This document shows, piece after piece, positions 3,001-5,390 of a stretch of DNA of 5,390 nt (within the stretch, counting starts at the first letter, position 1; every line of letters starts with the position of its first letter). The position numbers were made by a program. Source of the stretch: a virus. Taxonomy: Duplodnaviria; Heunggongvirae; Uroviricota; Caudoviricetes. The stretch lies in IMG/VR virus record IMGVR_UViG_2671180473_000013; one strand, 5' to 3'.

Positions 3001-5390
3001 CAAAAGGTCGGGTAGCCGCGCTGACAGACAATACGCAGGGGGCAGCAGGTCTTGAGTTATACGAGGTGTATAACAACGGATATCCAACAGCGTATGGAAA
3101 TATCATTCACCTGAAAGGGATGACAGCCGTTGGCGAAGGTGAGTTACTCATCGGCTGGAGTGGTACAAGCGGTGCTCATGCTCCGGCATTTATTCGTTCA
3201 CGACGGGATACGACCGACGCAAACTGGTCGCCGTGGGCGCAGCTTTACACCTCGGCTCATCCTCCTGCAGAGTTTTATCCAGTCGGTGCACCAATCCCGT
3301 GGCCATCAGATACCGTTCCGTCTGGTTATGCCCTGATGCAGGGGCAGACTTTTGACAAATCTGCTTACCCGAAACTTGCAGCCGCTTATCCGTCAGGCGT
3401 GATCCCTGATATGCGTGGCTGGACGATTAAGGGCAAGCCCGCCAGTGGTCGTGCCGTATTGTCTCAGGAACAGGATGGCATTAAATCGCACACCCACAGC
3501 GCCAGCGCATCCAGTACGGATTTGGGGACGAAAACCACATCGTCGTTTGATTACGGCACTAAATCCACGAATAACACCGGGGCGCATACGCACAGTCTGA
3601 GCGGCTCTACAAGTTCAGCTGGGGCCCACCAACATAGTCAGACTGGGCCCAGAACGAATAGCGGGAGTCAACCTACTGGAATGTTTCCGGCAGGGAGTAC
3701 TCAAGTTAGCGGGACTAATCAGGTTGGTATCAGTGGCTCATTAACCAGTGGCACCTCCCAATGGGTAGGTAAATCATCTTCAGAAGGAAACCATACACAC
3801 TCACTGTCCGGCACAGCAGCATCTGCGGGTGCACACGCGCATACTGTCGGTATTGGTGCTCATACGCACTCTGTTGCGATTGGTTCACATGGACACACCA
3901 TCACCGTTAACGCTGCTGGTAACGCGGAAAACACCGTCAAAAACATCGCATTTAACTATATTGTGAGGCTCGCATAATGGCATTCAGAATGAGTGAACAA
4001 GCACGGACCATAAAAATTTATAACCTGCTGGCCGGAACTAATGAATTTATTGGTGAAGGTGACGCATATATTCCGCCTCATACAGGTCTGCCTGCAAACA
4101 GTACCGATATTGCACCGCCAGATATTCCGGCTGGTTTCGTGGCTGTTTTCAACAGTGATGAGTCATCGTGGCATCTCGTTGAAGATCATCGGGGTAAAAC
4201 GGTTTATGACGTGGCTTCCGGCGACGCGTTATTTATTTCTGAACTCGGCTCATTACCGGAAAATGTCACCTGGTTATCCCCGGAAGGGGAGTTTCAGAAG
4301 TGGAACGGCACAGCCTGGGTGAAGGATACGGAAGCAGAAAAACTGTTCCGGATCCGGGAGGCGGAAGAAACAAAAAACAGCCTGATGCAGGTAGCCAGTG
4401 AGCATATAGCGCCGCTTCAGGATGCTGTGGATCTGGAGATCGCAACGGAGAAAGAAACCTTGTTGCTGGAAGCTTGGAAAAAGTATCGGGTGTTGCTGAA
4501 CCGTGTTGATACATCAACTGCACCGGATATTGAATGGCCAGTAGCACCTATAGGGTAAATTCGTAATGATTACCTAAATACGTTATTCTTTTGTTAAAAA
4601 AGTGATTTTGCTATAGGTAGGGAGTATGTTCTTGGATTAAGAATAAAAAATCGCCATGAAAGAGCTTCATGGCGAGTACATAAACGTACAAAATGTGATG
4701 AAAGTAGAGTGGCGTAAGCCACTATATTAAGATATGACAATAGCGAAGAAAAGTAAATAACATTTTATGGACGTTTAATTGTTAATTATAAAAACTAGAG
4801 TGCCCGATATTGTTTATCTTGCTTTAAAATAATGTACTCAAACCAAATTTTTGAGCTAAAAGCTCAAATAATATAAATGCAATAATAATGTTTAATAAGA
4901 CAATTAGCTTGCTTTGTATTTTCATTTCGGAATACTGTTAAGTAACTTTGATGACCCTAACAATAGATCGGAATTTTCTTAGAGTCAATGGTCACTGTTT
5001 TTGCTTGCAAAGCAAATGTTTTGGTGGTTATAAGTCGTCTTAATATAGTCACGCATGCAACTTGTTCCATGCGGAGATTAAAGATTGGAATATAACGCGA
5101 AGATGGAATTAAATTACATTTGCAATAATTAATTTATTATTACTCAATAATTACCGATATTATTATTGTAAATTAATCATTAGAATGCAAAAAGAAATGT
5201 AACGGCAAAATAAGAGGACGATAGCTGAGAAAAAAGCGTGCTTTCCCAATCTGGGGCAAATCACGTCTGAATGACACCTGAAAACAGGTGGTAGCCTCAA
5301 GAAGGCTGGTGATGCTGCCAACTTACTGATTTAGTGTATGATGGTGTTTTTGAGGTGCTCCAGTGGCTTCTGTTTCTATCAGCTGTCCCT

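What the first reader, a model, noticed from the sequence alone, without database searches (positions are those of the whole stretch)
4641..4724. Minus-strand terminator with no visible gene to terminate
The 9-bp perfect stem at 4652-4674 is followed by a U-tract only when read on the minus strand, so it should terminate a transcript running right to left, convergent with tfa. No minus-strand ORF of appreciable size lies upstream of it (4675-5307), which points to a non-coding RNA, a very small ORF, or a 3' end left behind by gene decay. A second short hairpin (AGTGGC-GTAA-GCCACT, 4708-4723) lies nearby.
Basis: inference. Interest (0 to 1): 0.45.

Follow-up and report, generated by a model that had tools for sequence, protein, structure and literature searches.

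The report
Terminator of a hidden small-protein gene
The "orphan" terminator is real and most likely ends a tiny, unannotated prophage gene for a 33-residue YncL-like membrane protein, whose last ~90 transcribed bases are conserved even more tightly than the protein itself.

Summary
The hairpin is present as described. It is a 9-10 bp perfect stem at 4651-4675 with a T-run only on the minus strand (dG -15.2 kcal/mol; 3 of 2000 shuffles give anything comparable).

It is not gene-less. It closes a ~545-bp AT-rich module (4560-5104) found just downstream of tfa in about 830 of 5426 complete E. coli genomes and in 4 phages, next to varying neighbours (an AraC-family regulator or sitDCBA).

On the minus strand the module carries:
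- a promoter-like site kept in all three sequence lineages (4988-4960);
- a 33-codon ORF (4925-4824), intact in all 38 variants, with dN/dS 0.04-0.09, homologous to the small membrane protein YncL but below NCBIfam's cut-off;
- a ~150-nt 3' region ending in the terminator.

The last ~90 nt (second hairpin, U-rich linker, terminator) stay 91-95% identical where synonymous sites are saturated (dS about 1). I infer a further RNA-level function, either a 3'UTR-type sRNA or a stability or control element. No Rfam family matches.

Transcription, 3' ends and translation are untested. I classify it as a new member of known kinds (a phage moron and a YncL-family small protein), of moderate interest.

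The parts
4651..4675 (-). Intrinsic-terminator stem-loop. It has a 10-bp stem (4651-4660 with 4666-4675) and the loop 4661-4665.
   Evidence: dG -15.2, z -5.5. Only 3 of 2000 shuffles give a comparable hairpin. Nine of the ten stem pairs are invariant in 19 distinct variants. The same site is found on the minus strand in all three lineages.
4641..4650 (-). U-tract of the terminator. It reads TTTTTTATTC on the minus strand, and TTTCTTATTC in the other two lineages.
4676..4707 (-). A 32-nt U-rich linker, CUACUUUCAUCACAUUUUGUACGUUUAUGUAC, predicted to be mostly unpaired. It lies between hairpin 2 and the terminator and has 2 variable sites (4676, 4695) across all lineages. It is a candidate Hfq-binding or seed region.
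   Evidence: The enclosing stretch 4676-4730 is 95% identical between the window and lineage C, against 53-82% on the ORF side and 65% on the tfa side.
4708..4723 (-). Hairpin 2: a 6-bp stem (AGUGGC/GCCACU) with a 4-nt loop.
   Evidence: Its substitutions (plus-strand G4718A and T4710C) keep pairing as G.U on the minus-strand RNA but would give C.A on the plus strand.
4724..4823 (-). Remainder of the 3' untranslated region. Positions 4731-4770 are moderately conserved and 4771-4823 are poorly conserved, with indels. The region holds a weak candidate internal promoter (TTTACT at 4757-4752, a 17-nt spacer, TATCTT at 4734-4729) that would start an ~80-nt RNA at hairpin 2.
   Evidence: The promoter was read by eye. 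It is below the scan's threshold and counts as inference only.
4824..4925 (-). A 33-codon ORF plus stop, MKIQSKLIVLLNIIIAFILFELLAQKFGLSTLF. It is a YncL-like single-pass small membrane protein that is unannotated in RefSeq.
   Evidence: It is intact and 102 nt long in 38 of 38 distinct module variants. Variable sites by codon position are 8/2/13. dN/dS is 0.04-0.09. It matches NCBIfam YncL at E 1.3e-5. The precomputed Pfam record lists PF28073 YncL as a weak hit. The alignment score to K-12 YncL is 60 against 20 +/- 4 for shuffles, 0 of 20000.
4960..4988 (-). Sigma-70-like promoter candidate, TTGACT-17-TATTGT, about 30 nt upstream of the ORF.
   Evidence: The same site is detected in lineages B and C (TATTGT/TATCGT). 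It is a consensus match only.
4560..5104 (-). The whole conserved AT-rich module (a 'moron') inserted after tfa.
   Evidence: Homology limits are. GC drops from ~50% to 27-35%. The right-hand neighbours differ between loci.

Best explanation
The hairpin at 4651-4675 is the Rho-independent terminator of a small, self-contained transcription unit on the minus strand. The unit is a phage 'moron' placed after the tail-fibre assembly gene tfa and convergent with it.

Read right to left, the unit consists of:
- a sigma-70-like promoter (4988-4960);
- a short leader without a clear Shine-Dalgarno sequence;
- a 33-codon gene (4925-4824) for a YncL-like single-pass inner-membrane peptide;
- a ~150-nt 3' untranslated region that ends in hairpin 2, a U-rich unpaired stretch and the terminator.

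The terminator releases this RNA and stops it from running antisense into tfa and the late operon. Because the last ~90 nt are held almost constant while synonymous sites in the adjacent ORF are saturated, that 3' end probably has a job of its own. The most likely job is an Hfq-type small RNA, released by processing of the mRNA or made from a weak internal promoter. Alternatively it controls the stability or translation of the mRNA for a potentially membrane-depolarising peptide.

Shown here: the hairpin, its strand asymmetry, the conservation pattern, the coding signature of the ORF and its similarity to YncL. Inferred: the promoter, the actual transcript ends, translation, and any sRNA activity.
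For: - **Terminator geometry and significance.**
- **Same layout in three lineages.** The promoter-like site, the ORF and the terminator are found on the minus strand in three sequence lineages that differ by up to ~21% and sit in different neighbourhoods. These are the AraC-regulator context, the sitDCBA context and a Bcr/CflA-sit context.
- **Co-occurrence.** The ORF-containing stretch and the 3' block occur together: 828 and 827 genomes with a match, and both are present in every locus fetched.
- **Coding signature of the ORF.** Its 102-nt length is kept in 38 of 38 variants. Variable sites by codon position are 8/2/13 (chi-square p = 0.019). dN/dS is 0.04-0.09.
- **YncL homology.** NCBIfam NF000537 at E 1.3e-5, aligned 1-28 of 30. 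A precomputed weak hit to Pfam PF28073 YncL. Alignment to K-12 YncL beats 20000 composition-preserving shuffles.
- **Known YncL biology.** YncL is a stress-induced small membrane protein whose production depolarises the membrane (PMC12542507).
- **Constraint on the 3' block.** 91-95% identity over 4641-4730, against 65% (4560-4640), 53% (4771-4823) and 82% (the ORF), with dS about 1.0.
- **Strand of the RNA.** Hairpin-2 substitutions are wobble-compatible only on the minus strand.
- **sRNA-like shape.** Every weak Rfam alignment over 4630-4778 lies on the minus strand and matches terminator-bearing sRNAs (VrrA, MicC, Hrs12, rseX, Esr41). All are far below threshold.
Against: - No expression data were available, so promoter use, the 3' end and translation are all unverified.
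- The ORF has no recognisable Shine-Dalgarno sequence in any lineage.
- The promoter is only a 9/12 consensus match, and in each region scanned the total number of promoter-like sites found was no higher than in shuffled sequence.
- The YncL profile score (25 bits) is below the curated cut-off (35). My own Pfam-A scan listed nothing.
- Covariation over the proposed 3' structures is not significant (138 of 500 shuffles do as well). Only three lineages exist, all within E. coli.
- In the other lineages the U-tract is interrupted (UUUCUUAUUC).
- A 150-nt gap between the stop codon and the terminator leaves room for a separate transcript.
Confidence: 0.58

Rival explanations
1. The terminator belongs to an independent ~80-nt small RNA gene (about 4724 to 4645 on the minus strand) with its own weak promoter (TTTACT-17-TATCTT, 4757-4729). 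The neighbouring 33-codon gene would be a separate unit that ends elsewhere or reads through.
For: - The island of highest conservation (4641-4730) coincides with exactly this RNA.
- It has the classic layout of a 5' hairpin, a 32-nt U-rich unpaired region, and a terminator with a poly-U tail.
- T1, A2 and T6 of the candidate -10 element, and the whole -35 element, are kept in all lineages.
- The stretch between the ORF stop and this RNA (4771-4823) is the least conserved part of the module (53%). That would be expected of a spacer between two genes.
- The weak Rfam alignments are to sRNAs of this shape.
Against: - The promoter is only 8/12 and was not picked up by the scan.
- No other terminator is conserved between the ORF and this block. 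The hairpin at 4850-4868 lies inside the CDS and is broken in lineages B and C.
- The block was not seen without the ORF in any locus examined, and the genome counts match (827 and 828).
- No Rfam family matches.
Confidence: 0.25
2. The module is a type I toxin-antitoxin-like pair. The hydrophobic 33-aa peptide would be a membrane toxin. A plus-strand antisense RNA, started at the promoter-like site 4734-4763, would overlap and repress its mRNA. The conserved 3' block would be the region of control.
For: - The peptide is small and hydrophobic with a single transmembrane segment, and it lacks a Shine-Dalgarno sequence.
- Its relative YncL depolarises membranes when produced.
- A plus-strand promoter-like site (ATGACA-18-TAACAT) lies at 4734-4763 and also in ev099.
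- Prophage location is typical of such systems.
Against: - No plus-strand terminator or stable antisense RNA structure was found in the window.
- The plus-strand promoter is a 9/12 match of the kind expected by chance, and it was not reported in lineages B or C.
- YncL is not classified as a toxin.
- No PADLOC or TA evidence was sought or found.
- The hairpin-2 substitutions favour a minus-strand structure.
Confidence: 0.08
3. The hairpin is a leftover or shared 3' end of a larger neighbouring operon. It could be the distal terminator of sitABCD, which reads right to left towards it in many genomes, or the remnant of a decayed gene. The small ORF would then be incidental.
For: - In lineage B loci, sitD ends ~240 bp to the right of the module on the same strand. 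The scan finds no canonical terminator in between.
Against: - The module occurs with the same layout where no sit genes exist, as in the window, mEp332 and ev099.
- A CCGTGGC/GCCACGG hairpin followed by TTCTCTTT lies just after sitD and could end that operon (read by eye).
- The ORF shows strong purifying selection, and the 3' block is constrained rather than decaying.
- No longer ORF is shared by the lineages.
Confidence: 0.05
4. The hairpin acts on plus-strand RNA, stabilising or terminating tfa and late-operon transcripts.
For: - It lies 93 nt after the tfa stop codon.
- A stable hairpin can block 3' exonucleases whichever strand it was selected for. The fold energy is equal on both strands.
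Against: - There is no U-tract on the plus strand in any lineage.
- Late transcripts of lambdoid phages are antiterminated, which is established knowledge.
- The spacer between tfa and the hairpin is poorly conserved (65%).
- The hairpin-2 changes would break plus-strand pairing.
Confidence: 0.04

Closest known systems
YncL, the 31-aa stress-induced small inner-membrane protein of E. coli K-12 (b4598; NCBIfam NF000537, Pfam PF28073)
   Same: Both are about the same length, with a short basic N-terminus followed by one hydrophobic helix and a K/R-F-G motif near the C-terminus. Eleven of 31 residues are identical (M1, S5, V9, L10, N12, A16, L19, F20, L22, F27, G28). The profile hit has E 1.3e-5, and the pairwise score is far above shuffles.
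   Different: The score is below the curated equivalog cut-off (25 against 35 bits). The gene sits in prophages after tfa rather than at the chromosomal patD-ortT locus. It has no Shine-Dalgarno sequence, whereas yncL has AAAGGTGG. It has a long conserved 3' region and a canonical U-tract terminator, neither of which K-12 yncL has. It is best regarded as a phage-borne paralogue.
Morons of lambdoid phages: promoter-ORF-terminator cassettes such as lom and bor, and the cargo loci downstream of tail-fibre genes
   Same: It is AT-rich (27-35% GC against ~50% in the flanking genes). It lies at the end of the late operon and is bounded by a promoter-like site and an intrinsic terminator. It is combined with different neighbouring cargo in different prophages.
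   Different: It is oriented against the late operon. It encodes only a 33-aa peptide. Its 3' UTR is more conserved than its coding sequence.
Hfq-dependent sRNAs, including 3'UTR-derived ones, and the prophage sRNAs of EHEC (AgvB, AsxR, Esr41)
   Same: It has a 5' hairpin, a U-rich unpaired stretch and a Rho-independent terminator with a poly-U tail. It is prophage-encoded. All weak Rfam alignments to this region lie on the minus strand.
   Different: No Rfam family reaches threshold (best 23 bits against cut-offs of 50-102). The EHEC anti-sRNAs lie at the PR' moron site, not after tfa (PMC4104026). No expression, Hfq-binding or target evidence exists here.

Membership tests
Rho-independent (intrinsic) terminator | A stable G+C-containing stem-loop | tested here: met
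   A 10-bp perfect stem with 5 G-C pairs, dG -15.2 kcal/mol, z -5.5. Only 3 of 2000 shuffles match it.
Rho-independent (intrinsic) terminator | A U-tract immediately 3' of the stem on the transcribed strand | tested here: met
   The minus strand reads UUUUUUAUUC and the plus strand reads GUACAUAAAC. The other lineages read UUUCUUAUUC.
Rho-independent (intrinsic) terminator | An RNA 3' end produced at the U-tract in vivo | not testable with these tools
   This needs Term-seq or 3' RACE on a strain carrying the module.
YncL small membrane protein family (NCBIfam NF000537 / Pfam PF28073) | A profile score at or above the curated cut-off | tested here: not met
   25.0 bits (E 1.3e-5) against a cut-off of 35. 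The precomputed Pfam hit is marked 'weak'. The local Pfam-A scan listed nothing.
YncL small membrane protein family (NCBIfam NF000537 / Pfam PF28073) | Sequence similarity to YncL beyond what composition alone would give | tested here: met
   A local alignment score of 60 against 20.2 +/- 4.1 for 20000 shuffles, none of which reached it. The alignment runs end to end.
YncL small membrane protein family (NCBIfam NF000537 / Pfam PF28073) | An approximately 30-aa protein with one transmembrane helix, actually translated and inserted in the membrane | tested here: inconclusive
   The length (33 aa) and the hydrophobic core LIVLLNIIIAFILFELLA fit. The coding signature is strong. Translation and localisation were not testable.
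YncL small membrane protein family (NCBIfam NF000537 / Pfam PF28073) | Orthologous chromosomal context (patD-yncL-ortT) | tested here: not met
   Here the gene follows a prophage tfa. The K-12 locus is different. It is therefore at most a paralogue.
Phage moron | An ORF flanked by its own promoter and terminator within a phage operon region | tested here: inconclusive
   The terminator criterion is met. The promoter is only a conserved 9/12 consensus match.
Phage moron | Composition distinct from the flanking phage genes, and mosaic distribution with variable neighbours | tested here: met
   GC is 27-35% against ~50%. The module sits next to an AraC regulator, sitDCBA or a Bcr/CflA gene in different loci. 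It is present in 828 of 5426 genomes.
Hfq-dependent trans-acting sRNA | A terminator hairpin preceded by a U-rich stretch and followed by a poly-U tail | tested here: met
   CAUUUUGUACGUUUAUGUAC lies upstream of the stem, with six U residues downstream.
Hfq-dependent trans-acting sRNA | A discrete small transcript, Hfq binding and defined targets | not testable with these tools
   No expression or interaction data were available.
Hfq-dependent trans-acting sRNA | Membership of a described RNA family | tested here: not met
   No Rfam family comes near its gathering score.
Type I toxin-antitoxin | A cis- or divergently encoded antisense RNA with its own promoter and terminator | tested here: inconclusive
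   Only a chance-level plus-strand promoter-like site at 4734-4763 was found, with no plus-strand terminator.

The most novel reading that the evidence does not exclude
The module is a dual-output prophage moron. It would make a YncL-like membrane peptide and also, from its ultra-conserved last ~80-90 nt (hairpin 2, a 32-nt U-rich seed and the terminator), a previously undescribed Hfq-type sRNA that regulates host or phage genes in trans. The sRNA would arise either by 3'UTR processing or from a weak internal promoter.
Probability: 0.3. Interest if true: 0.55.

Novelty: new member of a known kind. Interest (0 to 1): 0.38.

Why it matters
- **Annotation gap.** About 15% of complete E. coli genomes (828 of 5426) and several temperate phages carry this cassette. 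In every RefSeq or phage record examined, no feature matching the 33-codon gene or an RNA gene is annotated on it. At most an unnamed hypothetical protein is listed.
- **Possible effect on the host.** It adds a phage-borne paralogue to the YncL family. Production of YncL was recently shown to depolarise the membrane and condense the nucleoid. A prophage copy could therefore affect host stress physiology, persistence or phage exclusion.
- **A method that could be reused.** The 3' end is conserved about ten times more tightly than neighbouring synonymous sites, which makes it a cheap, testable candidate for a new prophage sRNA or mRNA control element. More generally, an 'orphan' terminator in AT-rich prophage cargo can be used to find missed small genes.

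Tried and rejected
- **Known RNA family.** Rfam over the whole window and over the module at permissive thresholds gave only sub-threshold hits.
- **Literature search by sequence.** Exact hairpin and peptide strings returned nothing.
- **Literature search by keyword.** Keyword searches for an sRNA near sitD or tfa gave nothing relevant. The EHEC prophage anti-sRNAs lie at PR', not here.
- **More divergent homologues for covariation.**
  - An 18-mer scan of viral contigs gave only E. coli-type copies plus one chance hit inside a tail gene (L028).
  - A 21-base pattern and a peptide-pattern scan of GTDB species genomes found nothing.
  - A peptide scan of viral contigs recovered the same set.
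  - HMMER against 1.8 billion representatives found only the protein itself and one near-identical variant.
  - As a result the covariation tests lack power.
- **Long-range helix.** A helix of 4760-4777 with 4681-4696, suggested by folding (z -7), has one G-C/G.U/A-U pair series. Its outer half is absent in lineage C and it does no better than shuffles. I do not claim it.
- **Pairing between the 5' leader or start codon and the 3' block.** The predicted duplexes are weak and not conserved in lineage C.
- **Plus-strand 24-codon ORF (4656-4730).** It is conserved in all lineages, but its 9 variable sites fall 3/3/3 by codon position, and it has no Shine-Dalgarno sequence. I reject it as coding.
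- **Other small ORFs in the module.** The 48-aa ORF at 4594-4740 and the 37-aa ORF at 4957-5070, both minus-strand, are not kept across lineages.
- **Hairpin 4850-4868.** The scan flags it as terminator-like, but it lies inside the CDS and is disrupted in lineages B and C.
- **PHROGs.** It gave nothing useful.
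Full report
**1. Setting**

The window is the right end of a lambdoid prophage late region.
- It contains a truncated lom (407-889).
- It contains a long side tail-fibre gene interrupted by a run of N (982 to about 3977).
- It contains the tail-fibre assembly gene tfa (3977-4558, plus strand).
- These are followed by an AT-rich stretch (4559-5307) and the left end of an IS1 element from 5308.
- GC content falls from about 50% in tfa to 27-35% after it.

**2.
- CGCCATGAA (4652-4660) pairs with TTCATGGCG (4666-4674) around the loop AGAGC. The T4651-A4675 pair extends the stem to 10 bp.
- On the minus strand the stem is followed at once by TTTTTTATTC (4650-4641). On the plus strand it is followed by GTACATAAAC.
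- The consensus scan reports a terminator only on the minus strand.
- The fold energy is -15.2 kcal/mol, with z = -5.5.
- In 2000 dinucleotide-preserving shuffles of 4559-5309, only 3 contained any perfect hairpin of at least 9 bp followed by a T-run.
- The second hairpin, AGTGGC-GTAA-GCCACT, lies at 4708-4723 as stated.

**3. The hairpin is part of a conserved mobile module**
- The stretch 4600-4990 is found in 828 of 5426 complete E. coli genomes, always on chromosomes. The wider stretch 4559-5309 is found in four phages: mEp332, PhiR70_1 and ev099 (ev099 under two accessions).
- No gene or RNA matching the features described below is annotated under it in these records. Most list nothing, and PhiR70_1 and ev099 list an unnamed hypothetical protein.
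- Comparison with more distant copies places the limits of the conserved unit at about 4560-5104.
- To its left there is always tfa or a tfa fragment. To its right the neighbour varies:
  - an AraC-family regulator about 1.4 kb away (phages mEp332 and ev099, and strain 104 with the same IS1 insertion as the window);
  - the sitDCBA iron/manganese transporter, reading towards the module;
  - a Bcr/CflA efflux gene followed by sit.
- Three sequence lineages exist: A (the window), B (the sit context, about 90-93% identical to the window) and C (about 79% identical).
- Nothing comparable was found outside E. coli-type sequences.

**4. There is a gene to terminate**

On the minus strand, 150 nt upstream of the terminator, lies a 33-codon ORF (4925-4824): MKIQSKLIVLLNIIIAFILFELLAQKFGLSTLF.
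- It is intact, with an unchanged length of 102 nt, in all 38 distinct module sequences collected.
- Lineage C differs at 17 of the 99 coding bases (about 17%), yet the protein changes at only 5 of 33 residues.
- Variable sites fall 8/2/13 on codon positions 1/2/3 (p = 0.019). Nei-Gojobori dN/dS is 0.04-0.09, with dS about 1.0 between lineages A and C.
- This is the signature of a translated gene under purifying selection.

The peptide resembles YncL.
- It matches the NCBIfam model for YncL end to end at E = 1.3e-5, though at 25 bits it is below the 35-bit equivalog cut-off.
- The precomputed Pfam annotation of the identical metagenomic product lists PF28073 YncL as a weak hit.
- Its alignment to K-12 YncL (MNVSSRTVVLINFFAAVGLFTLISMRFGWFI) scores 60, against 20 +/- 4 for 20000 composition-preserving shuffles.
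- YncL is a stress-induced small membrane protein whose production depolarises the membrane and condenses the nucleoid (PMC12542507).
- The ORF here is therefore a phage-borne YncL paralogue, not the orthologue. The genomic context differs and the curated threshold is not met.

A promoter candidate lies upstream.
- A sigma-70-like site (TTGACT, 17 nt, TATTGT; 4988-4960) lies about 30 nt upstream of the ATG.
- It is detected at the same place in all three lineages.
- It is only a consensus match.
- The leader lacks a Shine-Dalgarno sequence in every lineage. This is the weakest point of the coding model.

**5. The 3' end is more conserved than the gene**

Identity between lineages A and C, by segment:

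| Segment | Content | Identity |
|---|---|---|
| 4560-4640 | spacer after tfa | 65% |
| 4641-4675 | U-tract and terminator | 91% |
| 4676-4730 | linker and hairpin 2 | 95% |
| 4731-4770 | 3' region, upstream part | 75% |
| 4771-4823 | 3' region next to the ORF | 53%, with indels |
| 4824-4925 | ORF | 82% |
| 4926-4990 | leader and promoter | 82% |
| 4991-5104 | right end of module | 74% |

- The last ~90 transcribed nucleotides therefore form an island of constraint, flanked by diverged sequence on both sides. This sits beside synonymous sites that are saturated.
- Simple hitch-hiking with the ORF or with tfa does not explain it.
- Substitutions in the stem of hairpin 2 (plus-strand G4718A in three variants, T4710C in one) give G.U pairs in the minus-strand RNA. 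On the plus strand they would give C.A mismatches. This is modest evidence that the selected structure is in the minus-strand RNA.
- Nine of the ten terminator stem pairs never vary.
- Overall covariation is not significant (138 of 500 shuffles do as well), because there is too little diversity.
- A plus-strand 24-codon ORF (4656-4730) spans the block and is open in all lineages. Its nine variable sites fall 3/3/3 by codon position and it has no Shine-Dalgarno sequence, so I do not regard it as coding.

**6. What the 3' block may do (inference)**
- Its layout is a 5' hairpin, a 32-nt U-rich unpaired stretch (CUACUUUCAUCACAUUUUGUACGUUUAUGUAC), and a terminator with a poly-U tail. This is the layout of Hfq-dependent sRNAs, including those derived from 3' UTRs.
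- All weak Rfam alignments over this block lie on the minus strand and are to such sRNAs: VrrA 23 bits, MicC 22.8, Hrs12 18, rseX 17, Esr41 15.6. All are far below their thresholds, so this is a resemblance and not membership.
- A weak internal promoter (TTTACT-17-TATCTT, 4757-4729) keeps its key bases in all lineages. It would start an RNA right at hairpin 2 (read by eye, below the scan's criteria).
- Alternatively the block may control the stability or translation of the peptide mRNA. I looked for conserved pairing with the leader or start codon and found nothing convincing.
- A type I toxin-antitoxin-like arrangement, with a plus-strand antisense RNA started at 4734-4763, cannot be excluded. 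It rests on a chance-level promoter match.

**7. Alternatives rejected**
- **Termination of tfa transcripts.** There is no plus-strand U-tract in any lineage.
- **Terminator of the sit operon or a decayed gene.** The module keeps its layout in sit-less phages, the ORF is under selection and the block is constrained. sitD has its own candidate hairpin with a T-rich tail.
- **Dispersed repeat.** There is a median of one copy per genome and at most four, which tracks prophage copies.
- **The hairpin at 4850-4868.** The scan flags it, but it lies inside the CDS and is broken in lineages B and C.

**8. Verdict**
- The terminator is not orphaned. It closes a compact prophage moron that encodes an unannotated YncL-like 33-residue membrane peptide.
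- The strongly conserved 3' end of that RNA may be a small RNA in its own right.
- All statements about transcription, RNA ends, translation and function are inferences from sequence and comparison. Term-seq or dRNA-seq and a tagged ORF in a lysogen would settle them.
- This is a new member of known kinds, of moderate interest. The sRNA reading is the more novel possibility.

Noticed in passing
window 4320-4518 (+): A full-length, high-scoring Rfam hit to IS009 (RF02111, 218 bits, E 2.8e-54) lies entirely inside the tfa coding sequence. This 'sRNA' family therefore appears to model the conserved 3' half of prophage tfa genes.
   Followed up: no
window 407-889 (lom), junction near 878-883: The lom gene lacks 77 nt that are present in strain 104 (L001 831-907). 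It encodes a truncated 160-aa product instead of about 199 aa, so it is probably a pseudogene.
   Followed up: partly
window 2584-2653: A run of 70 N (an assembly gap) interrupts the side tail-fibre gene, inside a repeated segment (GIVQLSSATNSTSES... occurs twice). The stf reading frame cannot be judged across it.
   Followed up: no
window 5308-5390: The left inverted repeat of IS1 starts at 5308, where homology to the phages ends at 5307. It interrupts the long AT-rich region that in mEp332 and ev099 continues to an AraC-family regulator gene. Strain 104 has the same insertion.
   Followed up: partly
L106 2294-2452 and 3057-3156; L005 3610-3646: In lineage C the module is bracketed on both sides by fragments of the 3' end of tfa in the same orientation. 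This suggests it was moved or inserted by recombination within tfa.
   Followed up: no
window 4734-4763 (+): A promoter-like site (ATGACA-18-TAACAT) points rightwards and would give an RNA antisense to the 33-codon ORF. It is also found in ev099 but is not reported in lineages B or C.
   Followed up: partly
window 4656-4730 (+): A 24-codon plus-strand ORF (MKELHGEYINVQNVMKVEWRKPLY) starts inside the terminator stem. It is open in all lineages and was called as a gene in one metagenome contig (L112). Its substitutions show no codon-position bias.
   Followed up: yes
L007 3520-3610 (minus strand), between sitD and the module: Two hairpins follow the sitD stop codon. They are ATGCACTCTC/GAAAGTGCAT, and CCGTGGC...GCCACGG followed by TTCTCTTT. 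The second may be the sit operon's own terminator, although its 19-nt loop escaped the scan.
   Followed up: no
window 896-978 (+): A strong plus-strand terminator-like hairpin (CAGCCCGCCGGTTCAGGCGGGCTTTTTTGT) lies between lom and stf. It gave a sub-threshold Trp_leader Rfam hit, which is simply terminator resemblance.
   Followed up: no
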